From IMG/VR virus record IMGVR_UViG_3300028840_002373, positions 1 through 56,600 of that record: a stretch of DNA of 56,600 nucleotides. One strand, given 5' to 3'. Under the pieces are notes generated by a model, which made no database searches, was not told the origin of the DNA, and was given only the letters and a program-made list of their open reading frames with translations. Below, one piece after another: positions 1 through 39,428 of the stretch. A program made the translations under genes and the position numbers. Origin of the DNA: a virus (taxonomy: Duplodnaviria > Caudoviricetes). Position 1 is the stretch's first letter, and every line of letters begins with the position of its first letter.

Positions 1-144
1 GACCAAGTTTTAGCACCAGTTGGATATTTTATACCAGCAGAGGAATGTATGTTTGAAAGTATACTTGATGAATCTGGTGTAGATACTATGCAATATACTG
101 TTGTTGGTGGAACTAAAACAACTCAAGCGGCAGGAGCAGCACAA
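1..144 (+). repeat. Terminal direct repeat, copy 1 (circular assembly overlap)
   Basis: gaccaagttttagcacc...ggagcagcacaa is identical to 56457-56600 and lies inside the major tail gene. Confidence 0.97.
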
Positions 145-1515: not shown

Positions 1516-1537
1516 TTAATAGGAGGTGAGATTACAT

Positions 1538-4218: not shown

Positions 4219-5685
4219 TTGGGTTTACGACATTTATATATTGGTGGTACTGGTGGAACTGGTGTAACACCAACAGGAACAGAAGTACAAATAGGTAAAT
4301 CATGGACAATAAATCAACGAATAAATAATAAAGATACATTCTCATTTACAATAGAAGACGATAATAGTGCAACAATAGAACCATTAATAGAATTATATTT
4401 TTATGATGATACTACTTATATATGGGGTGGAGTTATAAAAACTGTAGATATTGAAAAAGTTAATCCAAATAGAGTAATATACTCAGTTAAAGCAGAGGAC
4501 TTCACTTCTTTAACTGAAAGACCATTAGTGGTTAGATCATATGAAGATGAAACAATATCAACTATTATAAATTCATTGATAACTACATACTTTAGTCAAT
4601 ATGGTGTAACTGAGGGAACTAATACAATAACTACTGTTATAAATCAGATTACATTTAATTATGAAAACGGTGATAATGTATTAAATCAATTAAAGAATTT
4701 TGGTAATTTTCAATGGAATGTAGATAAAGACAAAGTACTAAGTTTTACTATGATAAATACAACAACTAGCACAACTGCTTTAACTGATGAATTATCATTG
4801 AAAAAACAGTTAAGTGCTGACAACTACCGTAATACTCAGTATGGTAAAGGAAAGAAAAAGAGAACTGAGTATTTAGAAGATAAAACTATGACACCTAAAC
4901 CAGATGGTAAGACAAGAGAATTTTTCTCAAATTACCCTATAGCAAAAGAACCAGTAATCGAAACTAATGTTAATGGTGCTGGATGGGTGACTAAAACGGT
5001 AGGTGTTAGAGGTCTACAAACTGATAAAGATTTTTATTGGTCATATAATGATACTCAAGTTTCACAAGATGAAGATGGAACTGTTTTAACTGATGCTAAT
5101 CCAACAGATGATGAAATAAGAATTAGTTACTATGGTCTTATTCCATTACTAGTTGTATCTAGTGATACCTCAGAAGTAACAGCACATGGAGCAGTAGAAA
5201 ACTATATTTACAATAAGCACTTAGAGGATTCAATTGACGCTAAAAATTATGTTACAACATTATTAGACAAATATAGTAATGACGCTGATAAAATAAGTTT
5301 TACCATTCAACAAAAGACATATGAAGTAGGTGTACAGATACCAATAACTGATACATTATTAAATATATCTGGCGACTTTTTAGCTGAGTCTTGTACATGG
5401 ACACCTAGGGGTGCTAATGCGATAAATTATACATATGGTGTGTTAGATGGTGTTGCTCTTGGTGGATGGGAAGAATTTTTCAAAAACTTATTTGCACCAG
5501 AGGTAATTGAATTAGACGATCAAGAAGTAGTTATTCGTATTTATGAATTTGACGAGCCAACAGATCATGACGGTGAATATTATATAGAAGTTACTACACC
5601 ATTATTCCCTAGTAATTCTTTATATCCTAGTAATTCTTTATATCCAAATTCAACACCAACTAGTACAACTACTTTAAATGATTAG
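4219..5685 (+). CDS. Tail tip / hub protein
   Basis: First gene after tape measure; hub-like segments (GGVIKTV, FQWNVDKDKVLSF, YRNTQY). Confidence 0.7.
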   Translation: MGLRHLYIGGTGGTGVTPTGTEVQIGKSWTINQRINNKDTFSFTIEDDNSATIEPLIELYFYDDTTYIWGGVIKTVDIEKVNPNRVIYSVKAEDFTSLTERPLVVRSYEDETISTIINSLITTYFSQYGVTEGTNTITTVINQITFNYENGDNVLNQLKNFGNFQWNVDKDKVLSFTMINTTTSTTALTDELSLKKQLSADNYRNTQYGKGKKKRTEYLEDKTMTPKPDGKTREFFSNYPIAKEPVIETNVNGAGWVTKTVGVRGLQTDKDFYWSYNDTQVSQDEDGTVLTDANPTDDEIRISYYGLIPLLVVSSDTSEVTAHGAVENYIYNKHLEDSIDAKNYVTTLLDKYSNDADKISFTIQQKTYEVGVQIPITDTLLNISGDFLAESCTWTPRGANAINYTYGVLDGVALGGWEEFFKNLFAPEVIELDDQEVVIRIYEFDEPTDHDGEYYIEVTTPLFPSNSLYPSNSLYPNSTPTSTTTLND

Positions 5686-8617: not shown

Positions 8618-9352
8618 CTACTTAGGAAGTGTATAGTATAATACTTCTATCAAACCTTTCCAGTTATGACCTTCTTTGTGTATTGTTTTTAAGTCTTCTA
8701 AGTAAACATGTGACCATTTAGAAACTTCTTTTAATATTTGCTCATAATTCTTTTTACCTGATGGTGTCTCAGGAACATAAGTTAAATTAAAGTATTCACA
8801 TATACCCTTACAAACTTCAATAGCACATTCTTTTTGATAGTTTAAATCCCTCATTAAATTAGCTTCTTTTAGTATATCCATGAATCCAAACTCACTTAAT
8901 ACTGCTGGCATTGTTGTTTCTCTTAATACAAAAAAGTTAGCTGATTTAACACCCCTATTTTTCAATGGTGTACCTTGTAAGCTATATTTATGAATACTAG
9001 TTGCTAATTTTTTTCCGCTAGAACTATTAGGATAATGGTAAGTCTCAATACCACCTTCACCAGATCGCCAAGAGTTAGTCAAAGCATTAAAATGACCAGA
9101 CCAAAAAATATTACACTTTTTATTATTTGCTCTATTTGTGCGAACATAAAGAGGTGTATCAGTTCTTTCTGGTGATACATCATAAGGTGTTAATTGCGGT
9201 TGTCTCTTTAGTTCTTCAATTAAAAAAGTTTTACATGCATGATTAAATTCGTTTTCTCTTATCTGTGTTCCATCTGGATATTCAGGTGTTCTTTTTCCAG
9301 CAGTTTCCATTCCATGACCATCCGAGCAAGCTACTGTATAAATTTTACTCAT
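8618..9352 (-). CDS. Endolysin, N-acetylmuramoyl-L-alanine amidase (Amidase_3)
   Basis: DGHG...E, SGHFNA, GIETY and FFVLRETTMPAVLSEFGFMD zinc-amidase motifs. Confidence 0.93.
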   Translation of the reverse strand: MSKIYTVACSDGHGMETAGKRTPEYPDGTQIRENEFNHACKTFLIEELKRQPQLTPYDVSPERTDTPLYVRTNRANNKKCNIFWSGHFNALTNSWRSGEGGIETYHYPNSSSGKKLATSIHKYSLQGTPLKNRGVKSANFFVLRETTMPAVLSEFGFMDILKEANLMRDLNYQKECAIEVCKGICEYFNLTYVPETPSGKKNYEQILKEVSKWSHVYLEDLKTIHKEGHNWKGLIEVLYYTLPK

Positions 9353-9428
9353 ATTATTACTCCTTTCCAAAAGTACCGTTCTTTTTTCTATTTTGAATAT
9401 TTGGTCTTGATATACCTAATCCAGTTTT

Positions 9429-10073: not shown

Positions 10074-10340
10074 ATGTCTATTAAACAAATAACAACTAAA
10101 TATAATTTAAATCCGCTTTATTTAAAAAAAGTAATAAAGATGAAAAATGTAACACAACAAGAATTAATGCAACTTTTTGATAGGAGTATTGCTTCTATTT
10201 ACACTAGGTTAAGTGGTTCAAAAATGTTTACAATTAAAGAAGCATTTTTATTAGCTGATTATCTGGATATGGATATAAATAAGTTATTTGCACCAACACA
10301 AGATGATGTTATGAATGTTATTGTTAGAGATAAATTATGA
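10074..10340 (+). CDS. XRE-family HTH protein
   Basis: VTQQELMQLFDRSIASIYTRLSG...FTIKEAFLLADYLDMDINKLF. Confidence 0.75.
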   Translation: MSIKQITTKYNLNPLYLKKVIKMKNVTQQELMQLFDRSIASIYTRLSGSKMFTIKEAFLLADYLDMDINKLFAPTQDDVMNVIVRDKL

Positions 10341-12103: not shown

Positions 12104-14446
12104 TTAAAAATTCGATAAATGTTGATATTGCGTTAATATATCATCTTTGATTTTCAGACCAATTAAGCCACGACTTGTTGGTTTTTTTGTTTTAGGATTT
12201 ATAACATGCTTACTTTCTTTAATTGATTTAAACTTACTAGATATTTCTTTTCTTAATTGTGACCCTGACTTTTTAAATTTTAGATTTTCTTCTTCACAAT
12301 AAAGTTTAAACCAATGCAAAAGATCACTTGTAACCAGTTGTCCATCTTCTTTTAACTCAAACCATTCATTAACAAAGTCAACTACTGGTGAATCTTGGGT
12401 AATATAGTCTTTTATGATTTCTTCATTTTCTGTAGTTGTGCTAAATTTTAAATTGTTGCTCATTAATCGCCTTAATCCTTCAAACATCCAATTAAAAACA
12501 GCTTCATAATTAAATTTATTCAGTATCTCAGTATCTTGTTTTTCTTTTGGACATATATTTTTAAATGGTATAATAATAAATCTATTAAAAAACTCAGGTG
12601 ATTTATCATAAGTCATAGGTAACTGATTTGCACTAAAGTACAATCTAGCTGTATTATATCCAAAAATACTATCTCTACCTTTTTTCTCATATTTCATTAA
12701 ATCATCACCAGTTAGTATTTTAATTGTACTAGTGTCTTCAATTGGTGTTGATGGTAAATCAGCACATACATTAACTAATTTAGATAACAAAGAAGCTGTG
12801 TTAAATCTTGAGTTTTTCTTTGTTAAATCTTGTAATGGTTCACCACTACTATTCTCAGTACCTATTATTTTTAATAGTGTACTAAGTATAACTGATTTAC
12901 CAGTATCACCTTTACCATAAAGCATAAAGAATTTTTTTGCTCTATTGTGAGGAATTAAAGCATAACCCATGATTTCTTGAAGTAGCTTTTGTTGATATTT
13001 TGGTAAAACATCATCTAAAAATTTACTAAATATCTCACATTTAGCTTCTGGATTATAGTTATGATTTAATTGTATAGTAGTTAATTTATCTGGTGAATGG
13101 TCTTCTTTAGTAAAATCAGAAGAACCATGCTTAACATTTAAGATACAATTTTTCATATTTATTTGTGTATTAGATGTATTGAATTTAGAAAATTTAATAA
13201 ATTCTCTAAGTAACTGTTTGTAAACTTCATCTACATACTTAGATTCTTTGAATTTATTGTTTTCTACATCTATCATATGATTCTCTATTAACTTAGTTAA
13301 TTGTTGTTTTTCTACAATATTATAAACACCATTATTATAACTGTATGTATTTTGCTCAGTATTAACTATATTATGCTCTACAACTAAATGATTTCTTAAT
13401 TTAGTATAATCTAACTTATAATTATTATTACCATCAATATAAAACCAGTCTTTATCTAATGTTTGATTTTGTTTACTAAAGTCTATCTTTAGATCAAACA
13501 TTTCATTTAATTTAACTACAGCTTTAAATGGTGTGATGTCTTCCATTAAAGCAACTAGGTCTATTACAGTACCGCCTTTTTCACACCCAAAACAATTAAA
13601 AGAATTAGTCACCTCATATATAGCCATACTTGGTGTATTATCGTCATGATCGGGTAATATACAGTTAATAAGTCCTCCATTATAATCAACATTATATTTT
13701 TCAAGAACATTAACAATATCCACTTCACTTTTGACAAAATCAAATACATTATTAATATCTTCTTTTCTCATTTCTGTATTTCTTTGATACTTGTCTTTAA
13801 CTTTGTTTACATCAATTTTACTTAGTAATTCAACTTTTTTATATAACTCATTTACGTTCCTTGTGGCTGATGGTAAATTGTCAACTTTATAATCTTTATA
13901 TACATTACCAGTTAAAACAATAGCATGTTTTTTTATAAATACTTCAATACCACTTTTATCTGGTAAGTTAGAATACTTAGAATGTACTTTTTTTAACTTG
14001 ACACTTTTATTATCTTGTTTAGATAATGTTTTTGTTACCTTATATATAAGATGTAAACCATAACCACTAATAGAATACTCGATATATGGTCTAGTTTTTT
14101 CTATCTCTAAAGTATCTAATACCTCTTTTCCCCAATCGTATAAATTTTTATTTTCATCAAAACATCTATCTAAGTCAATTACCACATAGTCATTATCAAG
14201 TAGATAACTATAATACAATTTTTTTGGATTATTTGCTGTAACTGTCATAAATGACTTATAACAACTTGAATCTTTCCATTTAACATAGTACCCGTTGACA
14301 TCAACTGGCGCTCTTGTCACAACATCACCGAACACCCATTTATTTTGCTCTTTTATTTCTCTAGGTATATTGTGAATATTATCGATATGAGTTGTATTTA
14401 TTACCTCTTTTATATTATTTGTCTCTATCTTATTTAAAACATCCAT
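12104..14446 (-). CDS. Primase-helicase: AEP/PrimPol domain + CHC2 zinc finger + D5/P4-family SF3 helicase
   Basis: VVIDLD and EYSISGYGLH (AEP); CILPDHDDNTPS...CFGC (CHC2); GKGDTGKS, KILTGDD, FSANQLP and RFIIIPF (SF3). Confidence 0.92.
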   Translation of the reverse strand: MDVLNKIETNNIKEVINTTHIDNIHNIPREIKEQNKWVFGDVVTRAPVDVNGYYVKWKDSSCYKSFMTVTANNPKKLYYSYLLDNDYVVIDLDRCFDENKNLYDWGKEVLDTLEIEKTRPYIEYSISGYGLHLIYKVTKTLSKQDNKSVKLKKVHSKYSNLPDKSGIEVFIKKHAIVLTGNVYKDYKVDNLPSATRNVNELYKKVELLSKIDVNKVKDKYQRNTEMRKEDINNVFDFVKSEVDIVNVLEKYNVDYNGGLINCILPDHDDNTPSMAIYEVTNSFNCFGCEKGGTVIDLVALMEDITPFKAVVKLNEMFDLKIDFSKQNQTLDKDWFYIDGNNNYKLDYTKLRNHLVVEHNIVNTEQNTYSYNNGVYNIVEKQQLTKLIENHMIDVENNKFKESKYVDEVYKQLLREFIKFSKFNTSNTQINMKNCILNVKHGSSDFTKEDHSPDKLTTIQLNHNYNPEAKCEIFSKFLDDVLPKYQQKLLQEIMGYALIPHNRAKKFFMLYGKGDTGKSVILSTLLKIIGTENSSGEPLQDLTKKNSRFNTASLLSKLVNVCADLPSTPIEDTSTIKILTGDDLMKYEKKGRDSIFGYNTARLYFSANQLPMTYDKSPEFFNRFIIIPFKNICPKEKQDTEILNKFNYEAVFNWMFEGLRRLMSNNLKFSTTTENEEIIKDYITQDSPVVDFVNEWFELKEDGQLVTSDLLHWFKLYCEEENLKFKKSGSQLRKEISSKFKSIKESKHVINPKTKKPTSRGLIGLKIKDDILTQYQHLSNF

Positions 14447-14460
14447 AGTATAATACCTCC

Positions 14461-14658
14461 TTACTTAACATTAGTTTTATAGTTGTCTTCTTTTAACTCT
14501 AAGTTATCAAAATTATTAATTAAAAATTCTAAAACAGTTGTCATATTTTTACCTTGAGATTTAGCTATATCTTCTAACTTTTCTATTGTCTCAGGGTAAA
14601 ATTTGTATGTTTTAGCTACCTTTTTTACTCTTTCTGGTTTAATCACTTTTAATTTCAT
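14461..14658 (-). CDS. Ribbon-helix-helix / CopG-like regulator
   Basis: VAKTYKFYPETIEKLEDIAKSQGKNMTTVLEFLI; first gene of the primase operon. Confidence 0.75.
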   Translation of the reverse strand: MKLKVIKPERVKKVAKTYKFYPETIEKLEDIAKSQGKNMTTVLEFLINNFDNLELKEDNYKTNVK

Positions 14659-15048: not shown

Positions 15049-15076
15049 GAAAAGACCATCTAATTTGGTCTTTTTC
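15049..15076. terminator. Bidirectional terminator, near copy of the 14938 hairpin
   Basis: aaaagacca-tctaatt-tggtcttttt. Confidence 0.75.
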
Positions 15077-15083
15077 TACGTTT

Positions 15084-16370
15084 TTACAAATCTTCACTAA
15101 CTCTATAACTTTTTGAATTATTTTTATAAATAACTTTTTCTTCTAATAATTTTGGTTTCAAGTTGTCTACTTCATATCTTTTCATTCCCATAAATAATGT
15201 TATTTTTGCAATTGGAAATTGCTTACCTTGCATATTATTATCTTTTAGAAATTTAACAATTTTAGTAATAGTTGTATCTGAATAATCAAAACCAATCTTT
15301 TTTGAACTTGAACTTTGAAAACCAATCTTTTGTTTTGAACTTGATCTTTTTTGATCTTTAGTTGATCTTTCAAGATCAGTTGAACTTTTTATTTGATCTT
15401 TATGTTTAAGACTTAAAGATTGGGAATCATTACTACAAGCTACTTCCAGAACTTCATCTTCAACATCAAGATCAGATTTACCAATCTTTTTTATTTGAAC
15501 TTGATCTTTGTCAAAAGATTGGTTGATCTTTTCTAGTTGATCTTGAACTTGATCTTTTTTATTTGAAGTTTCATTTACACCATTAGATAACTCACTTTCA
15601 TTTTTCAAATTATTTGCTAATTCTTTTGCTTGCTTTAATGATTTTTCTTTTAAAGCCTCTTGCATAATATCATTTGGTGTAATTTCTTTTTCAGTTTTAT
15701 TATTACAATATATATGTGAGAAAATAACAATTAATGATTCTAACATTATTGCAAATAAGAATGAAAATATTAGTAAAATCTTACTCTTGTTTACATTTGT
15801 TTGTTTTGATATATTATTAAATAGCTTATGATAACCTTTGTCGTTATCGATTTCAATAGTCTTATATTTATTTATCTTTTTATTTTGCAATGTAATCAAT
15901 TTATCATTTTCTTTTTTAATTGATTCTTGCATTTCTTTTTTTATTTTCATAAATTCATTAGTTACTTTAGCAATATTAGTTGTATGGTATTGATTCATAT
16001 TACCTGTATAATCATTAATACTTAGTTCATTGTATGATTTCTGTAAATCTGAAATAACATTCTTTTGTAACTCTATAGCTTTAATATTATTATTGTATTC
16101 AGTAGTAATGATTTGCTTTGTCTTTATTGCTGTAAAGTTCATAAAGTTACCCATTGAAGCAATTAAAGAAAAGGAAATTAGGATTAATGCTAATCCTAAG
16201 TATACACGATTCTTCTTTTCTAACCCTTTGTATATAATCACAGGTTTCGCTATATCAAATGTTACACCTAGTATTATAAAGAAAATACCCAATGACCTAT
16301 AAAATATAAAACTTAATATAACTGCTATACCTATAAATCCATAATACAATATATTATTTATTTTACTCAT
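15084..16370 (-). CDS. Multi-TM, coiled-coil protein with low-complexity linker and probable C-terminal winged helix
   Basis: Three N-terminal hydrophobic helices, long coiled coil, fourth TM, and C-terminal FPIAKITLFMGMKRYEVDNLKPKLLEEKVIYK...YRV. Confidence 0.65.
   Translation of the reverse strand: MSKINNILYYGFIGIAVILSFIFYRSLGIFFIILGVTFDIAKPVIIYKGLEKKNRVYLGLALILISFSLIASMGNFMNFTAIKTKQIITTEYNNNIKAIELQKNVISDLQKSYNELSINDYTGNMNQYHTTNIAKVTNEFMKIKKEMQESIKKENDKLITLQNKKINKYKTIEIDNDKGYHKLFNNISKQTNVNKSKILLIFSFLFAIMLESLIVIFSHIYCNNKTEKEITPNDIMQEALKEKSLKQAKELANNLKNESELSNGVNETSNKKDQVQDQLEKINQSFDKDQVQIKKIGKSDLDVEDEVLEVACSNDSQSLSLKHKDQIKSSTDLERSTKDQKRSSSKQKIGFQSSSSKKIGFDYSDTTITKIVKFLKDNNMQGKQFPIAKITLFMGMKRYEVDNLKPKLLEEKVIYKNNSKSYRVSEDL
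15292..15556 (+). repeat. Intragenic array of 8-bp TTGAWCTT repeats
   Basis: 14 exact copies counted by eye (15302, 15308, 15335, 15341, 15351, 15362, 15380, 15393, 15495, 15501, 15523, 15537, 15543, 15549) plus CCAATCTT and reversed variants. Confidence 0.85.
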
Positions 16371-16396
16371 TCCTTATTCCTCCTTGTAATTTAATA

Positions 16397-17020
16397 TCAT
16401 GCAAATATCATGCAATATAACCATAATAATATTGCAATAATTATTGATAATATAATCGGCATAGCTAACGATAAATATATAGCATAATCTATTCGTAACC
16501 CTAAAGATATGTAAGTTATTGAAAATGTTACACAAATAATAATACTCAATATTATACATATATATTTCATATTAGATTTATCACATACATTATTATTATT
16601 ATTAGTTTCAATTTCTTTTTCTGTGTTATTGAAATCTTTCATTGATAATTGATTAGTTTGTGAATCATATCCTATTAGTATAATATTTAATTTATACATA
16701 TTAATATAATCTTCTATTAACTTTAATTCACCTTTTGAACAATTCATATATGCTATACATAGTTTTACTTCTTTATCTATACAATCTCCATACATAACAT
16801 TGTATGTTAATATTTGACCTATATCATGTGCTTGTAATTGCTTTTTACATTCAATTAAAACAATAGATTTTTCACATTCTACATAAATATCTAAAGTTTT
16901 ATAAATACCATTTCTATGCAATGAATACTCTAATAAAATTTTTTCAATTTTATCATTAAACCAATTTTCTAATATATCTTTATTATCTTTTAATAATTCA
17001 GCAAATTGTCTTTCTTTCAT
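16397..17020 (-). CDS. PD-(D/E)XK nuclease-like protein with two C-terminal TM helices
   Basis: E...LDIY...LIECKK...IGQILTY (D-ExK-QxxxY), then two hydrophobic helices. Confidence 0.7.
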   Translation of the reverse strand: MKERQFAELLKDNKDILENWFNDKIEKILLEYSLHRNGIYKTLDIYVECEKSIVLIECKKQLQAHDIGQILTYNVMYGDCIDKEVKLCIAYMNCSKGELKLIEDYINMYKLNIILIGYDSQTNQLSMKDFNNTEKEIETNNNNNVCDKSNMKYICIILSIIICVTFSITYISLGLRIDYAIYLSLAMPIILSIIIAILLWLYCMIFA

Positions 17021-17103
17021 ATCAAAATTACCTCCTTTTGTTCATGTGCTAAACCCTTCTTATAACTAGGTTTTGCTAAAAATTACCCTATTTTAGATCC
17101 TAC

Positions 17104-17247
17104 TTAAAATTGTTCTTTTAAATATTGCTCAATTAATCTAGTTACCAACTTTGATACACTTTTATCGTTTTCGTAACAATGTTCACTTAGTTTATCCTTT
17201 AATTCCTTTGTAACTCTTATTGATATAGTTCTAATTTTTTTATCCAT
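17104..17247 (-). CDS. Ribbon-helix-helix protein, 47 aa (not in ORF track)
   Basis: MDKKIRTISIRVTKELKDKLSEHCYENDKSVSKLVTRLIEQYLKEQF; GGAGGT RBS. Confidence 0.8.
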   Translation of the reverse strand: MDKKIRTISIRVTKELKDKLSEHCYENDKSVSKLVTRLIEQYLKEQF

Positions 17248-17508
17248 ATTTAACTACCTCCTTATTATTTGATTACATTGTATCACATGTAATACTTGTA
17301 TACAAATGTAGCAACATCTATATACAATCATATAACAAAAACACCTTCGACTTTCTGTGATTACATTCACAAAACTCGTACATAATATGTGATTCATTAT
17401 TGATTATCAATAACACTATTGAATATTGACAGTATGATAAGGGTATAGTAGTATAATAATTAAACTAGTGATCGATTTATGAAGTAGTCCATAAGTCATA
17501 AAAAAAAA

Positions 17509-17540
17509 AAGAACTCATATAATTGTATGAGTTCTTTTTA
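17509..17540. terminator. Bidirectional terminator
   Basis: aagaactcata/tatgagttctt stem with A- and T-tracts. Confidence 0.75.
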
Positions 17541-18008
17541 ATAGTTTTCTTTCAGTAACTTATAGGTATTCTTCATTTCCTGTATATCCAGATCATTCAT
17601 AGGTCTAATATAGTCTTTATCGATTAAAATATCTAATCTTTTCTTAATTGTGTTTTTATCAATGTTACCAAAATATTGCCCTAGTTTTGCCAATGATGGT
17701 CTTTTGAATAATCCATCTTTACTATTGATTTTTATGTAGTAGAATAACATTTTTAATTGGTTATCTAGGGTTAACTTTTTATAATTTTGGTGATTTTTTT
17801 CTAAAAAATCGCCCATATTAGGTGTATTTTTAGTTTGCTCACCAGTTAAAGAGTTCATGTATCGAAACACGCTTATATCAAAGGGTTGAATTAGTTTTAT
17901 TTCTGGTGAATCACTTAGTGACTTGTTGTGATTCTTGGTGAGTGATTTCTTCTTTGTCTTCTGTAAGTTCAATTTTGGCAAGATTAATTCTTTTAGTTGA
18001 TTTATCAT
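17538..18008 (-). CDS. Winged-helix DNA-binding protein overlapping the FtsK 3' end
   Basis: RPSLAKLGQYFGNIDKNTIKKRLDILIDKDYIRP wHTH pattern; own AAAGGA RBS. Confidence 0.6.
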   Translation of the reverse strand: MINQLKELILPKLNLQKTKKKSLTKNHNKSLSDSPEIKLIQPFDISVFRYMNSLTGEQTKNTPNMGDFLEKNHQNYKKLTLDNQLKMLFYYIKINSKDGLFKRPSLAKLGQYFGNIDKNTIKKRLDILIDKDYIRPMNDLDIQEMKNTYKLLKENY

Positions 18009-19716
18009 TTAAAACATATCCTTTCTTTAAGATTTCATACAATTTATTATGTGTATTGTTTGTAAGATAACCCTTCAATTTATAATTATCTGTCTCAGAT
18101 AAGACGAAAAATTCTCCAGTATTCAAACTTGGTATCATTTGTTGATATTCTTTCTTAGTTGTTATATTACAGCAGTCTATTGTATCTTCTAGTAAATGAG
18201 CTATCCTAGTAAACTGAGTCTTCCAAGACTTAACAAAGTCATTATCATTGGTTTGTTGTACTGCCATTAAGCAAAACATACCATATTTACGACCCCTTTG
18301 TAATAATGTTTTGATTTGCTTCTCCATTGGTTCAAACTCTTTTTTATCCATTTCGCTTTTAAATGCATTTGCTTCATCAACAGCAAAACAGATATACGGT
18401 AATTGTTCATTGTTAACCTTGTTATACTCTTGTATATTTTCGACTTTTAATTGTCTAAATGCTTGTTTTCTTTTATTATACTCAGTCAATAACTCAGTTA
18501 AAGCATTGTTTATATGGGGTACTTCTGATTCGATATATTTAACATTGTAGAAGTCTTCATATCTTACAAGTGCTGAGTCGGCAAAATCAAGCATATACCA
18601 GACAATATTAGTATGAAAGTACATGAGCGATTCTATGATACATTTAAAGGTACAAGATTTACCACTACCAGTTTTACCAGCAATTAAAAGATGTTTAAGG
18701 TTTGTTAGTGTATCAGTAACGACATTACCATTACTCATATTAACCCCTAGTATAAATTCTAAATCTTTTTTAACTGTGATATCTGGTATAACATCATCTA
18801 ATAAGTAGGTTTTAGTTACATCTTTTGATATTTTGTACAATATATAACCATTAGATACCTCAATATTACCTTTGTTTAACCCTATTCCCATTTTATGATT
18901 AATATCGTCCTTTAATCTTATTACCCTTTTAATAGGCAATATTGTTGTAAATTTATGAATAATTTCTGTATCAGTCTCATTAGTGCTTATGAAGTTAGGT
19001 TTATCCTTCATATTAATTAAAATTTGCTCTAATCTTGCTATACTTCCAGCTTCTAGTTTTCTGTAGTCGTTTTTTCCTAACTCTAAGTGATACTTATTCA
19101 AAACTAATTTATCCCTTCTTATACATGATATGCTATGATTAACTATAGACTCCAATTTGGTCTTATAAGTTATATCTAAAGGTTGAGTGGTAACAACTGT
19201 TACTACTTTATTTTTTACCTCAATTATCTCTAATCCATTAATAGTATCATTAGCTTTAATTTGCATATTTTCAACCATTTTAAAGTTTCTTTTAATGTTA
19301 TACATAATATAACTCAGCCCTCCTAGTGGTAATGTTAAACCATAGTATAAATTGTTTAACTCAGGTAATATCTGTTTATCTGAGAATTTCCATATATCTA
19401 TATAGTTATCATAAACTACAAAAGAAACTACAGTTAAAATAAAAGAGATAACTAATCTCTTATGATTAACATTACTAATTGATTCTATTATCTGTTTAAT
19501 CATTGATATAAATTTACTTCTCTTATATTGCTTAGTCCAACTATGAATAGCTACGCAATATGTATAATTAGATAATATCAATCCAGATAAGTAAATTAAT
19601 AAACTCTTGTCTACTCCTAGCTTACTCAATGTCCATGTTATACCTGTTAATATACATAGATTATATATAATCATTGCTATCAATTTCTTATCTTTAATTA
19701 ATGTTCTTAGCTTCAT
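17911..19716 (-). CDS. FtsK/SpoIIIE-family ATPase with N-terminal TM helices
   Basis: HLLIAGKTGSGKS Walker A, FAVDEA Walker B, LQRGRKYGM arginine finger, AVQQ; four N-terminal hydrophobic segments; no obvious gamma domain. Confidence 0.9.
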   Translation of the reverse strand: MKLRTLIKDKKLIAMIIYNLCILTGITWTLSKLGVDKSLLIYLSGLILSNYTYCVAIHSWTKQYKRSKFISMIKQIIESISNVNHKRLVISFILTVVSFVVYDNYIDIWKFSDKQILPELNNLYYGLTLPLGGLSYIMYNIKRNFKMVENMQIKANDTINGLEIIEVKNKVVTVVTTQPLDITYKTKLESIVNHSISCIRRDKLVLNKYHLELGKNDYRKLEAGSIARLEQILINMKDKPNFISTNETDTEIIHKFTTILPIKRVIRLKDDINHKMGIGLNKGNIEVSNGYILYKISKDVTKTYLLDDVIPDITVKKDLEFILGVNMSNGNVVTDTLTNLKHLLIAGKTGSGKSCTFKCIIESLMYFHTNIVWYMLDFADSALVRYEDFYNVKYIESEVPHINNALTELLTEYNKRKQAFRQLKVENIQEYNKVNNEQLPYICFAVDEANAFKSEMDKKEFEPMEKQIKTLLQRGRKYGMFCLMAVQQTNDNDFVKSWKTQFTRIAHLLEDTIDCCNITTKKEYQQMIPSLNTGEFFVLSETDNYKLKGYLTNNTHNKLYEILKKGYVLNDKSTKRINLAKIELTEDKEEITHQESQQVTK

Positions 19717-20026
19717 CTTAAATCACCTCGTATAATCGTTTAAATAGGTCTTAAATTGATTCTTATGTCAAAAGAGTATATTTAGTACTCTTAATTCTCT
19801 TAGCGTTCTAAGTGCCTTTATTTAATTAATAATCATATCAATTATTAATAAGATTATTATTTATCAATAATTATATAATGAATTATCATTTATGACAAGC
19901 AGTAAACATTAATTATAATTATGACTAATGTAAAATTTGATTTTACTTATTACAATTAAAAAATATTATCATTATGTAGGTGAATCTTTGTCACATATAT
20001 TTTACTTTTATTCGCTTGTAGTCATG

Positions 20027-23628: not shown

Positions 23629-25302
23629 ATGTTAACTAAAAAAGGAAATAAATTAATCTTAGAAGGAAATAATTTACCAGATTTCAATAGTGTACAAGGT
23701 AGCTCAAGAATAAAAAATGCATGGAGTTTTCCTATTGATTTCTTTTGTGTAAATCAGATAGCTAAAATATTGGGTTCTATTAAATTAGAACCTAGTGAGG
23801 AAGTTAAAAAGTGGTACTATGAGGAATATAATAAAAACTCATTAGCTAATAAGGTACAAAAGAATCAAGTTGTACCAGTACTAAGTAATATAGAAGGTTT
23901 AAACAAAGAATTAAAAGATTATCAATTACAGGGTGTTAAATTCTTTTTATCTGTTAACCGCTGTATACTAGGGTTCGAAGCTGGTTTGGGTAAAACTCTT
24001 ACAGCTATTAATTGCATGAAAACAATTAAAGCAAAAAAAGTTTTGGTAGTTTGTCCTAGTTACCTTAAATACAATTGGGAAGATGAAATAAACAAGTGGT
24101 CTGATTATACAAATACCATTATTAATGGAACACCAACTCAAAGGGAACAAGGTTACAAAGATTTCAAAGAAAATAATAAAAACATACTTATTGTTAACTA
24201 TGAGCAAATAAGATACAAAGTAACTAAAGGAGAAAACAACAAGGTAACAAATAAAGAAATTAAGATTCATAAGGATGTTTTAGAGCCAATATGGGATTTA
24301 ATAATAATGGATGAATGTCATAGATTAAAGGGAAGGGATTCTCAGGTATCTGAGGGTATGTTAAAGCTTAAGTCTAGAAATAAATTAATGCTCACAGGTA
24401 CACCAATTAATAAATGTGAAACTGAGATATGGAAGTTATTAAGGATTCTTGATAAACAAAGGTTTACAAGTTACTGGAAGTTTGCGGAGTATTACTGCAA
24501 TGTTGAAGATGGTTTCTATGGTAAAGAAATTAAAGGACTAAAGAATCCACAAGAATATAGTAAACTTCTTAATCGTTATATGCTGAGAAAGAAAAAAGAG
24601 GATGTAATAGATTTACCAGATAAGGTCATAAAGACTATTAAAATTGACTTATCACCTAAGCAACTAAAGTTATATAAGCAAGCTGAGAAAGACTATTTAA
24701 ACCCTAAAGGTGATGTTATAGAGTCAGATGTTGAAAAGTTTATAAGAATCAATCAAATAGTGCAAAATCCAGCAATCCTCGATGGTCAAAACGTATCTTC
24801 TTTAACTGATACAGCAATTGAAATACTACAGGATAATGAGGAAAAATTTATTATAGGCTGTGTATACATTGGTATGTCTGAGTTGACATATGAGACAATT
24901 AAAAAAGCTTTTCCTAAAAGAGACGTATTTCTTGTTAATGGTACGATTAATAATAAGAATAGACATGAAATAATAGAGAACTGGAAGAAAAAAAGAAATT
25001 CTATCATAATCACAACAATAAAAGCTATGAGTGAGGGGTTAAATTTAGATATCTGTGATAACATGATGTATCTTGATTATGATTGGTCAAATGTTGCCAA
25101 TTCACAGTTTAGCAATAGGATTCATAGAATGACTAGTACCAGACAAAAAATGTATTATCATTTAATTGTTAGAAAAACAGTATCAGAATACAAATACTAC
25201 AAGCTAATGAATGAAGATCATCAGATGTCTAAAGCTTTAAATGATACTCCTAGTGCTATTAAATATCTAGCTGAGGAATACAGGAGGTCTTTAGATGACT
25301 AA
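23629..25302 (+). CDS. SNF2-family (SF2) helicase
   Basis: LKDYQ, GLGKT, DECH, LTGTP, EGLNL and RIHR motifs. Confidence 0.93.
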   Translation: MLTKKGNKLILEGNNLPDFNSVQGSSRIKNAWSFPIDFFCVNQIAKILGSIKLEPSEEVKKWYYEEYNKNSLANKVQKNQVVPVLSNIEGLNKELKDYQLQGVKFFLSVNRCILGFEAGLGKTLTAINCMKTIKAKKVLVVCPSYLKYNWEDEINKWSDYTNTIINGTPTQREQGYKDFKENNKNILIVNYEQIRYKVTKGENNKVTNKEIKIHKDVLEPIWDLIIMDECHRLKGRDSQVSEGMLKLKSRNKLMLTGTPINKCETEIWKLLRILDKQRFTSYWKFAEYYCNVEDGFYGKEIKGLKNPQEYSKLLNRYMLRKKKEDVIDLPDKVIKTIKIDLSPKQLKLYKQAEKDYLNPKGDVIESDVEKFIRINQIVQNPAILDGQNVSSLTDTAIEILQDNEEKFIIGCVYIGMSELTYETIKKAFPKRDVFLVNGTINNKNRHEIIENWKKKRNSIIITTIKAMSEGLNLDICDNMMYLDYDWSNVANSQFSNRIHRMTSTRQKMYYHLIVRKTVSEYKYYKLMNEDHQMSKALNDTPSAIKYLAEEYRRSLDD

Positions 25303-25741
25303 TAAAACACATATTATGTTTGGTGTAGCTGTTAATGCAACAGCTACTTATTTTTTAAAAGATTACATAGAAATAGATTTATCACATGTATTACTTGGTG
25401 CTATTATTGGTTCTCAGTTTCCTGACTTAGACTCAGAATGTAGTTGGATAACTCAAACTATCCCATTACCATATAAGTTGTTGAGTAAAACAAAAAAATT
25501 ACACCATAAAACCCATAGGACAATATTATTACACAGTCTCTATACAATAATTGTAACCATCATATTAATGTTAATGTTTAAAAATAGTATTATCATAGGT
25601 TTTGGAATAGGTATCATTACTCATATAGTAACTGATAACTTTATTAAATGTAATTCATTATTAGAAAAAGTTTGCTACTATATTTCTACTTCAATAATTA
25701 TTATCTTTATTATAAAGGAGGTGACTTTTTTAATTGGATAA
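25295..25741 (+). CDS. YdjM-like membrane metal-dependent hydrolase
   Basis: M..KTH, GSQFPDLD, HR...HSL and HIVTD motifs with TM helices. Confidence 0.85.
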   Translation: MTNKTHIMFGVAVNATATYFLKDYIEIDLSHVLLGAIIGSQFPDLDSECSWITQTIPLPYKLLSKTKKLHHKTHRTILLHSLYTIIVTIILMLMFKNSIIIGFGIGIITHIVTDNFIKCNSLLEKVCYYISTSIIIIFIIKEVTFLIG

Positions 25742-26028: not shown

Positions 26029-26784
26029 ATGGCTAAAGGAACTAAAACTTCAAAAGGAACTAAATATGTAAGTGGAAAGGTGGATTTAATATTTCCAGCT
26101 ATAGCAACACCACAGTATTATGTAGCAAATAGTAACAAGTTTGTAACAATTCAGAAAGAAGATCAATTGGAAAAAGAATGTACTAAGAACGATAAGGGTG
26201 TATGGGTAAAGCAAGTAGATGATAAAGATGTAGACTTAGGATATGTTGTTACTGTATTAGTACCAAAAGATTCGAATGAGGGTAAGAAGATTAAACATAT
26301 AATAGATACTGAATGGGAAAATGGTAAAAAAGCTGGTATGATTTCTAAAAGATCACTTTATCCATTAGTAGATGGTGATGAAAAAGCGGATGAATTAGAA
26401 TCTAGAGATAAAAACGGAGAATATTACAGAGGTTGTTATAGTCTTCAAGCAAAAACAAAATATAAACCATTAATAATCGAGGGTAAAAAAAGAGTCAATC
26501 CAACATCAACTATATTTGATGTAGATCACAATGGTTGGACTGGTAGAGTATCGTTAACAATTAGACCATATAAATTTGGTGCAAATTCAGGAGTTAGTAT
26601 CAAACTTAATCAAATATGTTTCTTAGAAGATAATCCAGATTTAGATTTTGGTGGCGGTTGTGATTTTGAGATTGAGGAAGAAGACGAGCAAACAGATTTT
26701 GGTAATAATGTTGCAAATAATGAAACAGTTAACACAGGTATACAATCATGTTATGATGAAGAAGAAGAACCACCAGTCATGTAA
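26029..26784 (+). CDS. Single-stranded DNA-binding protein (DUF2815/Enc34-like)
   Basis: PLVDGD, Y.G.Y.L.AKT, GRVSLTIRPY...NSGVSIKLNQI and an acidic C-terminal tail. Confidence 0.82.
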   Translation: MAKGTKTSKGTKYVSGKVDLIFPAIATPQYYVANSNKFVTIQKEDQLEKECTKNDKGVWVKQVDDKDVDLGYVVTVLVPKDSNEGKKIKHIIDTEWENGKKAGMISKRSLYPLVDGDEKADELESRDKNGEYYRGCYSLQAKTKYKPLIIEGKKRVNPTSTIFDVDHNGWTGRVSLTIRPYKFGANSGVSIKLNQICFLEDNPDLDFGGGCDFEIEEEDEQTDFGNNVANNETVNTGIQSCYDEEEEPPVM

Positions 26785-38907: not shown

Positions 38908-39346
38908 TTGGGCACACATGGGCAAGTCTTGGGCACTTTTTGGGCACATTGTAACCCTCATCATTACTAGGTTTGGGCGCTTTGGGCGCATTTTTGCAAA
39001 ATTACTCTATATATATTTATATATAAAAAAATATATTTTTTTTTATAGTTTTTTTTTTTATCAAAAATATCTACAGCGAAATTATTAAATATATGCCCAA
39101 AATGCCCAAATGCAGTAATAGCTTAAAAGTAAAGTGCCCAAATTTTTTTAAAACCTGCCCAAACCTCACTAGGAGTGGTGCCCAACTGAACTAAGAACTC
39201 CTAGTTTACTTAGAGTACCCTCTAAATAAATCTTGGGCACTTTTTCATTTTTTGGGCACTTTTTTTTTTTATGAAAATATTTTTTAATTGGGCAAAAAAA
39301 AAAAAAAAAAGTGCCCAAGAAAAAAAAGTGCCCAAGATTTTGCCCA
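38908..39346. repeat. Origin-like element B, inverted homolog of element A, with an extra mini-array at 39233-39346
   Basis: TGGGCR x6, AT core, TGCCCAA x5, then TTGGGCA x3, poly-A, TGCCCA x3; reverse complement aligns with 20107-20385. Confidence 0.87.
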
Positions 39347-39428
39347 CGTAGTTTTATTTAGAACGAAAATAGCACTTTTTTAGCAAAATGTTTGACACTT
39401 TTAACTAATGTCATACTGTAGTGACAAG

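What the first reader, a model, noticed from the sequence alone, without database searches (positions are those of the whole stretch)
15084..19716. Phage-encoded membrane DNA-translocation/tethering module (FtsK + wHTH + membrane nuclease + TM-coiled-coil-wHTH)
Seen: two adjacent leftward operons. One is a TM-FtsK/SpoIIIE ATPase with no visible gamma domain plus an overlapping stand-alone winged-helix gene. The other is RHH, then a PD-(D/E)XK nuclease with two TM helices, then a four-TM coiled-coil protein with a C-terminal wHTH. The phage has its own terminase, so this ATPase is unlikely to be for packaging, and no integrase or ParA was seen. Known: Streptomyces plasmids move dsDNA with an FtsK-like TraB plus membrane Spd proteins, and SpoIIIE pumps DNA into forespores. 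Inference: this is a virion-independent system that anchors the episomal phage genome at the membrane or septum and pumps it into the forespore, daughter cell or neighbouring cell. The membrane nuclease could process DNA or exclude competing DNA.
Basis: partly seen in the sequence, partly recalled or inferred. Interest (0 to 1): 0.85.

Follow-up and report, generated by a model that had tools for sequence, protein, structure and literature searches.

The report
Phage membrane DNA pump with tether
An uncultivated tailed phage carries a conserved gene set for a membrane-anchored FtsK-type DNA pump, a separately encoded DNA-reading adaptor predicted to dock on it, and a membrane protein that probably ties phage DNA to the membrane, but what the set does for the phage is untested.

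Summary
The window is a complete, circularly assembled ~56.5-kb tailed phage. At 15084-19716 (minus strand) lie two operon-like units. Unit 1 is a membrane-anchored FtsK/SpoIIIE ATPase without a gamma domain, plus an overlapping 156-aa gene. Unit 2 is an RHH protein, a PD-(D/E)XK-like protein with two C-terminal hydrophobic helices, and a 4-TM/helical-hairpin protein ending in a winged helix (wHTH).

New here:
- The 156-aa protein is a detached DNA-reading adaptor. It follows the pump gene in 8 of 10 related loci and is fused to it in L001 and P0029. A complex prediction docks its residues 34-54 on the motor (0.81; best control 0.02).
- A multi-TM protein with a C-terminal wHTH recurs beside FtsK-type genes in several lineages.
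- The nuclease-like gene is missing from the closest relatives, so it is accessory.
- Fourteen TTGAWCTT copies lie inside the tether gene, in three reading frames, and are conserved in relatives.

Best reading: a TraB/clt/SpdB2-like machine that holds the phage's own DNA at the membrane and moves it. The destination (daughter cell, forespore or neighbour) is open. The host and any episomal state are not shown. This scan has noted similar modules in other phage genomes. New variant of a known kind.

The parts
19870..19898 (-). Promoter-like site upstream of the FtsK gene (TTGTCA-17-TATAAT, 11 of 12)
   Evidence: Pattern scan. Consensus match only; the region had fewer promoter-like sites than its shuffles (44 against a mean of 55.4).
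17911..19716 (-). Membrane-anchored FtsK/SpoIIIE-type ATPase, 601 aa, with no gamma domain
   Evidence: PF01580 3e-17. PHROG 1358 2.7e-32. Walker A G347-GKTGSGKS-S354 and D447-E448 are invariant in 25 relatives. Profile hits in PDB to EccC, FtsK and a 'DNA translocase coupling protein', 6o1w. Hydrophobic segments at 12-31, 39-57 and 88-106.
17538..18008 (-). ORF156, a detached DNA-reading adaptor: N-terminal docking peptide (about residues 34-54) and C-terminal wHTH (about 80-150)
   Evidence: Found directly after or overlapping FtsK in relatives and fused to it in L001 and P0029. Weak HTH_36, MarR and DnaD_N matches. Complex prediction scored 0.81 against a best control of 0.02. A stop codon lies directly before its ATG.
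17506..17539 (.). Hairpin that reads as a terminator on both strands, at the end of the FtsK-ORF156 unit
   Evidence: 14-15 pairs followed by a T run. Eight terminator-like sites were found in the region against a mean of 1.0 in shuffles.
17382..17410 (-). Promoter-like site upstream of the RHH gene
   Evidence: TTGATA-17-TATTAT, 10 of 12. Consensus match only.
17104..17247 (-). 47-aa ribbon-helix-helix protein: operon regulator or repeat-binding protein
   Evidence: PF01402 5.5e-6, 26.6 bits against a cut-off of 20.5. PHROG Arc-like repressor 1.5e-6. 96% identical in L003 and L004. RHH-like small genes also flank the module in L002, L005 and L043, judged by eye; L005's upstream 71-aa ORF matches RHH_1 at E 0.0025, below the cut-off.
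16397..17020 (-). ORF207, a PD-(D/E)XK-like domain (1-135) with two C-terminal hydrophobic helices; accessory, not a conserved part
   Evidence: D44...E57xK59 invariant. Weak fold support. Absent from L003 and L004. A relative, P0057, fuses this domain to an ORF428-type wHTH.
15084..16370 (-). ORF428, a membrane DNA tether: TM1-3 (2-79), helical hairpin (90-163), TM4 (195-226), disordered linker (264-363), wHTH (363-423)
   Evidence: AF2 model with a 20-row alignment, pLDDT 71, wHTH about 89. Foldseek matches wHTH domains only (GntR, Z-alpha, IclR; probability about 1.0 but E 0.07-0.3). The family has 21 representatives and no Pfam family. Full-length-aligned uncharacterised phage proteins in BFVD, E 6.6e-6 to 1.3e-4.
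15302..15556 (+). Array of 14 co-oriented TTGAWCTT copies in two clusters (8 + 6), inside the linker-coding part of ORF428: candidate docking site
   Evidence: 24 matches in the window against 10.4 expected, and 0 of 100 shuffles reached 24; 14 of the 24 lie here. The copies fall in three reading frames, and all 14 are conserved in L003 and L004, which carry 15. It is the densest local 7-mer pile-up in the window.
15050..15074 (-). Terminator-like hairpin after ORF428

Best explanation
This is a conserved early-gene module of a lineage of uncultivated low-GC tailed phages. It builds a membrane-bound machine that handles the phage's own double-stranded DNA.

The proposed parts are:
- The 601-aa protein is a membrane-anchored FtsK-type hexameric pump that lacks a DNA-reading domain.
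- That domain is supplied in trans by ORF156. Its N-terminal peptide (about residues 34-54) docks on the motor, and its C-terminal winged helix reads DNA.
- ORF428 sits in the membrane with four helices and an outward helical hairpin. It reaches into the cytoplasm through a long disordered linker that ends in a second winged helix. This makes it a membrane tether for DNA.
- The 14-copy TTGAWCTT array inside its own gene is the likely docking site for one of the three DNA binders (ORF156, RHH47 or ORF428).
- The RHH protein regulates the second operon or binds the array.
- ORF207 is an add-on.

Most likely job: keep the replicating or episomal phage genome at the membrane and move it directionally across a closing septum, so that it reaches daughter cells or, in a spore-former, the forespore. 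This would work like FtsK/SpoIIIE and like Streptomyces TraB/clt/SpdB2, and it is not packaging.

Shown by computation: the domain identities, the membrane segments, the co-occurrence and fusion, the predicted docking, and the array with its conservation. Inferred: DNA binding to the array, pumping, cellular location and biological role.
For: - Motor: FtsK domain with intact Walker motifs. N-terminal hydrophobic segments are present in 17 of 25 family members by a simple hydropathy scan.
- Adaptor: the wHTH HMM hits the ORF after FtsK in the window and in 8 of 10 related loci. In one of these (L001) it is the C-terminus of FtsK itself, and P0029 carries the same fusion.
- Docking: complex prediction scored 0.81 against a best control of 0.02. 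That mark was reached by 58 of 80 solved complexes and 2 of 110 mismatched pairs. The runs agree in at least 49% of contacts and the partner pLDDT is at least 66. My own alignments were used, so the calibration counts hold only roughly. The interface is ORF156 residues 34-51 and 54, the block conserved in split forms and missing from the fused form.
- Tether: the ORF428 fold. The same family sits next to an RHH, a short FtsK-domain ATPase and a tyrosine recombinase in an unrelated 70-kb viral contig, L043. Multi-TM proteins with a C-terminal wHTH (partial ORFs cut by the contig end in L005, L006 and L010) lie beside the pump in L002, L005, L006, L007 and L010.
- The adaptor wHTH and the wHTH of one ORF428-family subgroup align by hhalign at probability 82%, E 9.8e-6.
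- Array.
- Precedent: TraB binds direct 8-bp repeats in clt through a C-terminal wHTH. SpdB2 is an oligomeric 4-TM protein with a coiled coil that binds dsDNA, and it has putative homologues in actinophages (passages of PMC4447253 and PMC3583192).
- The phage has its own terminase and portal, so a packaging role is unlikely.
Against: - No experiment bears on any step.
- The window's own ORF428 wHTH does not align significantly with the adaptor family (E 0.14).
- The adaptor does not align significantly with a cellular FtsK gamma domain (E 0.3), so 'gamma-like' rests on position and role only.
- The L002-type membrane protein is not demonstrably homologous to ORF428 (hhalign probability 5.7%, wHTH part only). 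The recurrence there is of architecture, not of a family.
- L001 has the fused pump but no membrane wHTH protein in its 11 kb.
- No comparable short-repeat array was found in L002 or L043. The L007 array is an in-frame tandem repeat. The TTGAWCTT array could instead be replication iterons or a by-product of a repetitive linker.
- 8 of 25 pump relatives show no hydrophobic segment at my threshold.
- Host, lifestyle (lytic or episomal) and sporulation are unknown.
- The NCBIfam TraB model scores 14.4 bits against a cut-off of 800.
Confidence: 0.45

Rival explanations
1. Capsid-independent spread. The module is a true TraB-like conjugation device. The pump loads at the repeat array and pushes phage dsDNA into a neighbouring cell, with ORF428 acting like SpdB2.
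For: The part list matches TraB/clt/SpdB2: TM plus motor plus wHTH, direct 8-bp repeats, and a 4-TM DNA-binding membrane protein. [quoted passage not shown] PMC4447253 suggests SpdB2 homologues in actinophages may spread phage DNA. Thermus TdtA is listed as an ATPase that pushes DNA out of donor cells (PMC5365140; search listing and start of abstract only).
Against: FtsK-type dsDNA conjugation is documented, in the passages I read, only for mycelial Streptomyces, where hyphae offer fused compartments. The low GC content and the endolysin point to a non-actinomycete, probably unicellular host. The NCBIfam TraB model is far below its cut-off. No cell-wall hydrolase or mating-pair genes were seen in the module.
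Confidence: 0.15
2. Replication and resolution module. ORF428 attaches replicating phage DNA to the membrane, the array is a set of iterons for the neighbouring primase-helicase or another initiator, and the pump serves to resolve or unlink replicated genomes (an FtsK-Xer-like role) rather than to move DNA across a septum.
For: The module lies directly upstream of, and in the same orientation as, the primase/D5-type helicase at 12104-14446, among replication genes. In L043 the FtsK-domain gene is followed by a tyrosine recombinase, PF00589 4.9e-12. Members of the adaptor family match HTH_36 and DnaD_N, which are wHTH types of replication initiators. Two iteron clusters flanking a spacer recall P4 and SaPI origins, and the phi29 membrane protein p16.7 anchors replication; both points are recalled, not from a call.
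Against: The window has no recombinase among the ORFs scanned. A soluble pump would do for resolution, yet this one is membrane-anchored. I confirmed only a TGCCCAA pile-up near 39.05 kb.
Confidence: 0.2
3. Superinfection exclusion or defence. The membrane pump and the membrane nuclease reject or destroy incoming foreign DNA at the membrane.
For: ORF207 is a nuclease-like membrane protein. The motor gives partial hits to PADLOC models with FtsK/HerA-type ATPase domains: SspH 2.3e-15, mads_8 2.5e-10, HerA.
Against: The PADLOC hits cover only the shared P-loop domain. The other five proteins have no PADLOC hit below E 0.004. ORF207 is missing from the closest relatives while the rest of the module is kept. 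A binding-site array on the phage's own genome argues for handling of self DNA.
Confidence: 0.1
4. No joint function. The genes are neighbours by chance, and the repeats are a side effect of a low-complexity linker.
For: Phage early regions are mosaic. ORF207 shows that genes come and go here. KDQ and KIGF motifs persist at the protein level in a 44%-identical homologue.
Against: Fusions exist (P0029 and L001 for pump plus adaptor; P0057 for nuclease plus ORF428-type wHTH). The module recurs in distant contigs. The complex prediction passed. The repeat is used in three reading frames.
Confidence: 0.05

Closest known systems
Streptomyces TraB / clt / SpdB2 conjugative DNA-translocation system (pSVH1, pIJ101, pWTY27)
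   Same: An N-terminally membrane-anchored FtsK-like motor. A wHTH that reads short direct repeats of about 8 bp clustered at one locus. An oligomeric 4-TM, coiled-coil, dsDNA-binding membrane partner of about 410-430 aa. A small regulator in the operon. (Passages of PMC4447253 and PMC3583192; anatomy here.)
   Different: Here the wHTH is a separate, overlapping gene predicted to dock through a peptide. The NCBIfam TraB model is not met, at 14.4 bits against 800. The setting is a low-GC tailed phage, not an actinomycete plasmid. In ORF428 the TM helices come first and the DNA-binding domain is a defined C-terminal wHTH. Homology of ORF428 to SpdB2 was not tested because I had no SpdB2 sequence. 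Transfer is not shown.
Cellular FtsK / SpoIIIE
   Same: The same motor family (PF01580, and a PDB profile hit to 2ius/2iuu that covers part of the alpha domain and the beta domain). Membrane anchoring. Reliance on a wHTH that reads 8-bp words.
   Different: No gamma domain in cis, and the adaptor does not align with a gamma domain (E 0.3). The NCBIfam FtsK equivalog scores 33 bits against a cut-off of 1566. The N-terminal membrane part is unrelated and poorly conserved.
FtsK/SpoIIIE-like genes already annotated in phages (Bacillus cereus-group gamma-like and Bastille-like phages, Cluster J mycobacteriophages)
   Same: A phage with its own terminase also encodes an FtsK-type ATPase of unknown role. 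Authors presume it binds and translocates phage DNA, or link it to sporulation (passages of PMC4113786 and PMC3706429). spoIIIE is listed among sporulation genes in gut phages (a table row of PMC10294663).
   Different: Only 23-26% identity to those phage genes over about half the length. The Cluster J proteins lack the membrane domain and carry their gamma-like domain in cis. Here the pump is membrane-anchored with a split adaptor and a conserved membrane wHTH partner.
TcpA-type FtsK-like coupling proteins of Firmicute conjugative elements
   Same: N-terminal TM helices plus a single FtsK-type motor of about 500-600 aa without a gamma domain. The longest PDB alignment is to a 'DNA translocase coupling protein', 6o1w-6o1z, profile positions 311-543. 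That this entry is TcpA of pCW3 is recalled, not from a call.
   Different: No type IV secretion genes or relaxase were seen among the ORFs scanned. The partner proteins here are DNA binders.
Phage phi29 p16.7 membrane DNA anchor (recalled, no call)
   Same: A membrane anchor plus coiled coil plus C-terminal DNA-binding domain that holds phage DNA at the membrane.
   Different: p16.7 is small with a single TM helix. No homology was tested, and it has no associated pump.

Membership tests
FtsK/SpoIIIE ATPase superfamily (Pfam PF01580) | P-loop motor domain scoring above the Pfam gathering cut-off, with Walker A and B motifs | tested here: met
   63.3 bits against a cut-off of 24, E 3e-17. GKTGSGKS and DE are invariant in 25 relatives.
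Cellular FtsK/SpoIIIE proper | C-terminal gamma wHTH domain (PF09397) in the same chain | tested here: not met
   No PF09397 among the 11 Pfam hits. The chain ends about 30 residues after the motor. Adaptor against the gamma-bearing P0048: E 0.3.
Cellular FtsK/SpoIIIE proper | Equivalog-level similarity (NCBIfam NF007615) | tested here: not met
   33 bits against a cut-off of 1566.
Streptomyces TraB | NCBIfam NF041214 plasmid_TraB above its cut-off | tested here: not met
   14.4 bits against a cut-off of 800, E 0.0096.
Streptomyces TraB | wHTH that recognises clustered direct 8-bp repeats (clt) | tested here: inconclusive
   A wHTH adaptor is predicted to dock on the motor, and a 14-copy 8-bp array exists 2.4 kb downstream. 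Binding is not testable here.
Streptomyces TraB | Transfers dsDNA between cells | not testable with these tools
   Needs a mating assay with the (unknown) host.
SpdB2-like spread protein | Oligomeric 4-TM membrane protein with a coiled coil that binds dsDNA and TraB | tested here: inconclusive
   The architecture fits: 4 TM helices, a helical hairpin and a wHTH. Sequence homology was not tested, and oligomerisation and binding are not testable here.
Type IV coupling protein (TcpA-like) | Works with a T4SS (VirB4-type ATPase, channel proteins) and a relaxase | tested here: not met
   No such family appeared among the window ORFs scanned with Pfam or PHROGs. Small ORFs were not all scanned.
EssC/EccC (type VII secretion) | Several tandem FtsK-type ATPase domains; equivalog score | tested here: not met
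   One ATPase domain only. TIGR03928 scores 74.5 bits against a cut-off of 778.
Ribbon-helix-helix (PF01402) | RHH_1 above the gathering cut-off | tested here: met
   26.6 bits against 20.5.
PD-(D/E)XK nuclease (ORF207) | An alpha-beta-beta-beta-alpha-beta core carrying D...(D/E)xK | tested here: inconclusive
   The D44...E57xK59 motif is invariant in 3 of 3 homologues and present in P0057. The secondary-structure order fits. But pLDDT is 57, Foldseek gives NucS/EndoMS only at E 4e-3 or weaker, with acetyl-CoA carboxylase rows ranked above, and Pfam HSDR_N_2 is at 0.013, below its cut-off.
Winged helix (ORF428 C-terminus) | Three helices followed by a beta hairpin, with structural matches to wHTH domains | tested here: met
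   H363-377, H387-394, H398-410, E414-417 and E420-423 at pLDDT about 89. Matches to GntR, Z-alpha, IclR and DtxR-type domains, with TM by target up to 0.79 and rmsd 2.0, though E is only 0.07-0.3.
Plasmid partition systems (ParABS / ParMRC) | A ParA- or ParM-type NTPase beside the centromere-binding protein | tested here: not met
   No ParA or ParM family was found. The only partition-related row is a weak RHH match to phrog_795, 0.0064.

The most novel reading that the evidence does not exclude
Low-GC tailed phages outside the actinomycetes carry a self-contained TraB-like machine: a split pump and reader, a membrane DNA tether, and an in-gene docking array. It moves the phage genome without a capsid, either into a neighbouring cell or actively into the forespore or daughter cell. 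That would give these phages a second, virion-independent route of inheritance or spread.
Probability: 0.2. Interest if true: 0.85.

Novelty: new variant of a known kind. Interest (0 to 1): 0.6.

Why it matters
FtsK/SpoIIIE-like genes have been annotated in phages for over a decade with no known role. This locus supplies a testable part list:
- a pump that has lost its reading head;
- a separately encoded head with a defined docking peptide;
- a membrane protein that probably ties DNA to the membrane;
- a candidate DNA site.

If the parts work as proposed, tailed phages of low-GC bacteria have a way to place or move their genomes in cells without capsids. That bears on carrier states, spore entrapment and horizontal spread. 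The split motor and reader would also be a simple system for studying how FtsK-type pumps are loaded on DNA.

Tried and rejected
- Near-identity DNA searches of the region against phages and plasmids found nothing.
- tblastn of ORF428 against phages and plasmids found nothing.
- Single-protein scans of IMG/VR with FtsK and ORF428 found no relative.
- The genome-contig scan with the FtsK alignment found none.
- Programmed frameshift joining FtsK and ORF156: rejected. All six overlapping cases are in the +1 frame, but the ORF156 frame opens only 0-18 nt before its start codon, and in the window a stop lies directly before the ATG.
- Packaging ATPase: rejected, because a TerL and a portal are present.
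- Defence system: only shared P-loop hits in PADLOC.
- Homology of the adaptor to the FtsK gamma domain: not significant.
- Homology of the L002 membrane protein to the ORF428 family: not significant.
- Fold search of the ORF207 model: no match at E <= 0.001.
- Fold search of ORF428 against PDB: only the wHTH matched, and the membrane part matched nothing.
- Pfam found no family in 20 ORF428-family members beyond scattered weak rows.
- Host assignment: the genome search does not draw relatives for a virus record, so the host remains unknown.
- From the 40 metagenome loci, I analysed only the 9 with E <= 5e-23 (L003-L011; L009 is the same contig as L002). I dropped the other 31, which are generic FtsK-like at 22-28% identity.
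- Literature: three searches turned up no description of a split pump/adaptor or of this membrane wHTH family in phages. That is the whole basis for calling it undescribed. Supplements were closed.

Full report
**What the window is.**
The window is the whole record held for this genome: one contig of 56,600 bp. Its first and last 144 bp are identical and lie inside a gene, so the assembly is circular and about 56,456 bp long. GC content is 24-34% and there are no tRNA genes.

It is a tailed phage. PHROGs finds:
- a large terminase at 43876-45438 (5.3e-60);
- a portal at 46006-47694 (5.7e-77);
- a head protease and a major head protein at 51535-52467 (2.3e-81);
- an endolysin at 8618-9370.

A tape-measure-like 892-aa ORF lies at 1526-4204 (judged by eye).

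Replication genes include:
- a primase/D5-type helicase at 12104-14446;
- a helicase at 23629-25302;
- a gp2.5-like SSB at 26029-26784.

No integrase, ParA or ParM appeared among the ORFs I scanned. The smallest ORFs were not all scanned. An 88-aa HTH protein at 10074-10340 weakly matches repressor PHROGs (7e-6). The lifestyle is therefore open.

**The five genes.**
All five sit on the minus strand. Four of them have strong AGGAGG-type ribosome sites, and ORF156 has a weak one.

Pattern scans place signals as follows:
- a promoter-like site at 19898-19870;
- a two-way terminator hairpin at 17506-17539, directly after ORF156;
- another promoter-like site at 17410-17382;
- a terminator hairpin at 15074-15050, after ORF428.

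These remain consensus matches only.

- **FtsK (601 aa).** It meets Pfam PF01580 at 63.3 bits against a cut-off of 24. It has three N-terminal hydrophobic segments and ends about 30 residues after the motor, with no gamma domain.
- **RHH47.** It meets PF01402.
- **ORF207.** It carries D44...E57-x-K59, invariant in its three homologues, followed by Q69-x-x-x-Y73. That this second motif is typical of RecB-like nucleases is recalled, not from a call. Its model is poor (pLDDT 57), although the strand and helix order fits the nuclease core. Foldseek puts NucS/EndoMS at ranks 3, 4 and 8 with E of 4e-3 or weaker, below two acetyl-CoA carboxylase rows. The Atlas's own model matches clusters that carry NucS_C, PDDEXK_10 and YhcG_C at TM about 0.5. 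I rate the nuclease fold as likely but not established. The two C-terminal hydrophobic helices are clear.
- **ORF428.** Modelled with a 20-row alignment, it reaches pLDDT 71. The model shows helices 2-25, 29-52 and 55-79, a helical hairpin at 90-163 flanked by short strands, a fourth hydrophobic helix at 195-226, a helix at 232-262, a disordered stretch at 264-363, and a three-helix-plus-hairpin winged helix at 363-423 with pLDDT about 89. The positive loop between TM2 and TM3 suggests that the N-terminus and the wHTH are cytoplasmic and the hairpin faces outward. This topology is an inference.
- **ORF428 fold searches.** Against PDB, Foldseek matched only the wHTH. Against BFVD, it found uncharacterised phage proteins of 269-408 aa aligned over most of the length, with E 6.6e-6 to 1.3e-4.

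**The 156-aa gene is a detached reader for the pump.**
The FtsK protein has a tight family of 37 metagenomic proteins, itself included, with E <= 1e-51. The other 13 hits were generic FtsK proteins at E >= 4.7e-9.

Pattern scans gave 10 distinct related loci: L001 and L002 from IMG/VR, and L003-L008, L010 and L011 from metagenomes.

An HMM of the C-terminal half of ORF156 hits an ORF directly after or overlapping the pump gene in L002, L003, L004, L005, L006, L007 and L011. In L001 it hits the C-terminus of the pump itself. That makes 8 of 10 loci.

The two misses are:
- L008, where a 124-aa ORF starts like L011's but diverges just before the contig end;
- L010, where a 181-aa ORF after the pump looks like a wHTH only by eye.

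P0029 carries the same fusion as L001.

The six overlapping cases are all in the +1 frame. However, that frame opens only 0-18 nt before the start codon, so this is an overlapping gene and not a frameshift product.

Family members give weak but convergent wHTH matches. Five of 8 match HTH_36 (best E 4.7e-4), and others match MarR_2, HTH_24 or DnaD_N. A profile search of PDB finds MarR at E 0.018.

The split forms share an N-terminal block (P-E-I-K-P-I ... V-x-R-x-F) that the fused form lacks.

A complex prediction of the motor (residues 215-601) with ORF156 supports binding:
- the score was 0.81 and the best of three controls was 0.02;
- that mark was reached by 58 of 80 solved complexes and 2 of 110 mismatched pairs;
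- the runs agree in at least 49% of contacts, and the partner pLDDT is at least 66;
- my own alignments were used, so the calibration counts hold only roughly.

The confident interface is exactly that N-terminal block, ORF156 residues 34-51 and 54. It lies against motor residues 307-312, 365-372, 390-393, 408-412, 437-442 and 558-567. This is a model, not a measurement.

**The membrane wHTH protein and the RHH recur; the nuclease does not.**
In L003 and L004, whose FtsK is 88-89% identical, the order is pump, adaptor, RHH (96% identical), then immediately the ORF428 homologue. ORF207 is absent. ORF207 is therefore an accessory insertion.

P0057 joins an ORF207-like domain directly to an ORF428-type wHTH. 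That suggests recombination at this spot, or a shared task.

A profile of ORF428 found 21 representatives among 1.84 billion proteins. All 19 family members that I aligned keep the pattern of N-terminal hydrophobic helices plus one near residue 200. Pfam knows no family for them.

One family member lies in an unrelated 70-kb viral contig, L043. There the order is an RHH-like gene, the ORF428-family gene, two small genes, a 274-aa FtsK-domain ATPase without TM segments (PF01580 1.2e-12) and a tyrosine recombinase.

Other pump lineages carry a different multi-TM protein in the same place:
- L002 has a 348-aa protein ending in a wHTH-like segment.
- L005 and L006 have partial ORFs cut by the contig end whose N-termini resemble it.
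- L007 has a divergently placed 438-aa protein with a coiled coil, TM helices, a repetitive linker and a wHTH-like end.
- L010 has a 284-aa multi-TM ORF, also cut by the contig end.

These are similar in architecture only. hhalign of the L002 protein against the ORF428 subgroup gives probability 5.7%. Several of the assignments are by eye or at E 4e-4 to 6.5e-3 against an HMM that included the L002 sequence. L001 has no such protein in its 11 kb, and L008 and L011 are too short to tell.

The adaptor wHTH and the wHTH of one ORF428 subgroup align at probability 82%, E 9.8e-6. The window's own ORF428 wHTH does not align significantly (E 0.14).

**A repeat array inside the tether gene.**
The whole window has 24 copies against 10.4 expected, and none of 100 shuffles reached 24.

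The copies lie in the part of ORF428 that encodes the disordered linker. They form two clusters of 8 and 6, and they fall in all three reading frames (7, 6 and 1 copies). The same word thus encodes KDQ/QVQ in one place and RSS/SSK in another. This argues for selection on the DNA.

All 14 copies are unchanged in L003 and L004, which have 15. The substitutions between the genomes fall between the copies. Overall divergence there is only about 10%, so this is a weak test.

No comparable short-repeat array was found in L002 or L043. L007 has 8 copies of a 10-mer at a 21- or 42-nt period inside its own membrane wHTH gene, but these are in-frame tandem repeats.

**What it most likely does.**
The parts add up as follows:
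- a membrane-anchored dsDNA pump;
- a sequence reader that docks on it;
- a membrane protein with a cytoplasmic DNA-binding head on a long leash;
- a small RHH DNA binder;
- a dense array of an 8-bp word on the phage's own DNA.

This part list matches Streptomyces TraB/clt/SpdB2:
- TraB binds direct 8-bp repeats in clt through its C-terminal wHTH, and it forms hexameric membrane pores.
- SpdB2 is an oligomeric 4-TM coiled-coil protein that binds dsDNA and TraB.
- Putative SpdB2 homologues occur in actinophages.

These points come from passages of PMC4447253 and PMC3583192.

The list also matches the logic of FtsK/SpoIIIE. Membership of those families is not met: the TraB model scores 14.4 bits against 800, the FtsK equivalog 33 against 1566, and there is no gamma domain. 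So it works like them without being one of them.

I commit to a machine that holds the phage's own genome at the membrane and moves it directionally, most likely across a closing septum. My confidence is about 0.8 for the anatomy and 0.45 for the whole reading.

The rivals are:
- TraB-like cell-to-cell spread (0.15);
- a replication-anchoring and resolution role, favoured by the neighbouring primase-helicase and by the recombinase in L043 (0.2);
- exclusion or defence (0.1);
- no joint function (0.05).

The forespore version needs a sporulating host. The endolysin is 47-49% identical to those of Geobacillus, Lysinibacillus and Bacillus phages. One 42%-identical pump relative is labelled as coming from a Cetobacterium MAG. 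The host is not established.

**Known or new.**
FtsK/SpoIIIE-like genes in phages are in print as annotations with presumed roles. Examples are the B. cereus-group phages and the Cluster J mycobacteriophages. The Cluster J proteins lack the membrane domain and keep a gamma-like domain in cis (passages of PMC4113786 and PMC3706429). spoIIIE appears in a list of sporulation genes in gut phages (PMC10294663). The Streptomyces plasmid-phage pZL12 is cited as needing a tra gene for transfer (PMC3583192). I could not read the original paper.

This scan has also noted TraB-like pump modules in other phage genomes. One of them has a membrane DNA-reading protein whose probable target repeats lie inside its own gene. 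By sequence, none of those notes matches this locus.

What I did not find in three literature searches is the split pump and reader with a docking peptide, or this membrane wHTH family. I therefore class the locus as a new variant of a known kind.

Noticed in passing
window 1-144 and 56457-56600: An exact 144-bp direct overlap of the two contig ends, lying inside a structural gene. This is a circular assembly, so the true length is about 56,456 bp.
   Followed up: yes
window 26914-29634 (+): A 906-aa ORF in the replication block, after the SSB gene, with no Pfam, PHROG or NCBIfam match at the thresholds used. It may be a divergent polymerase or another large replication protein.
   Followed up: partly
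L043 7677-11702: An unrelated 70-kb viral contig carries, in order, an RHH-like gene, an ORF428-family membrane wHTH gene, two small genes, a 274-aa soluble FtsK-domain ATPase and a 228-aa tyrosine recombinase. This is a second version of the pump-plus-tether module, here next to a recombinase.
   Followed up: partly
protein P0057 (202 aa, metagenomic): An ORF207-like nuclease domain fused directly to an ORF428-type C-terminal wHTH, without any TM segment.
   Followed up: no
L007 1301-1562, inside the minus-strand gene 1060-2376: Eight copies of a 10-mer at a 21- or 42-nt period in the linker-coding part of a 438-aa coiled-coil/TM/wHTH-like gene that lies divergent from the FtsK gene. Two further 7-mer pile-ups lie near 150-400 and 5000-5300 of the same locus.
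   Followed up: partly
L002 8353-9684; L006 356-1447; L008 1008-2309: Three small membrane proteins (about 130, 160 and 80 aa) are conserved directly upstream of the shorter FtsK variants, which lack the long N-terminal TM region. They may supply the membrane anchor in trans.
   Followed up: no
L001 5697-6353 and about 5200-5450: A DUF2800/PD-(D/E)XK nuclease (2.4e-48) sits directly upstream of the fused FtsK-wHTH gene. A pile-up of a 7-mer (ACCTAGC/CCTAGCA, up to 6 copies in 300 bp) lies just upstream of it.
   Followed up: no
window 25295-25741 (+): A 148-aa protein matching the YdjM inner-membrane protein family (2.4e-16), between the helicase and SSB genes.
   Followed up: no
window 14461-14658 (-): A 65-aa ORF ahead of the primase-helicase gene looks like another ribbon-helix-helix protein by eye. 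Its only database row is a weak TelK_muzzle match (0.0088).
   Followed up: no
window about 39050-39400: A local pile-up of TGCCCAA (7 copies in 300 bp).
   Followed up: no
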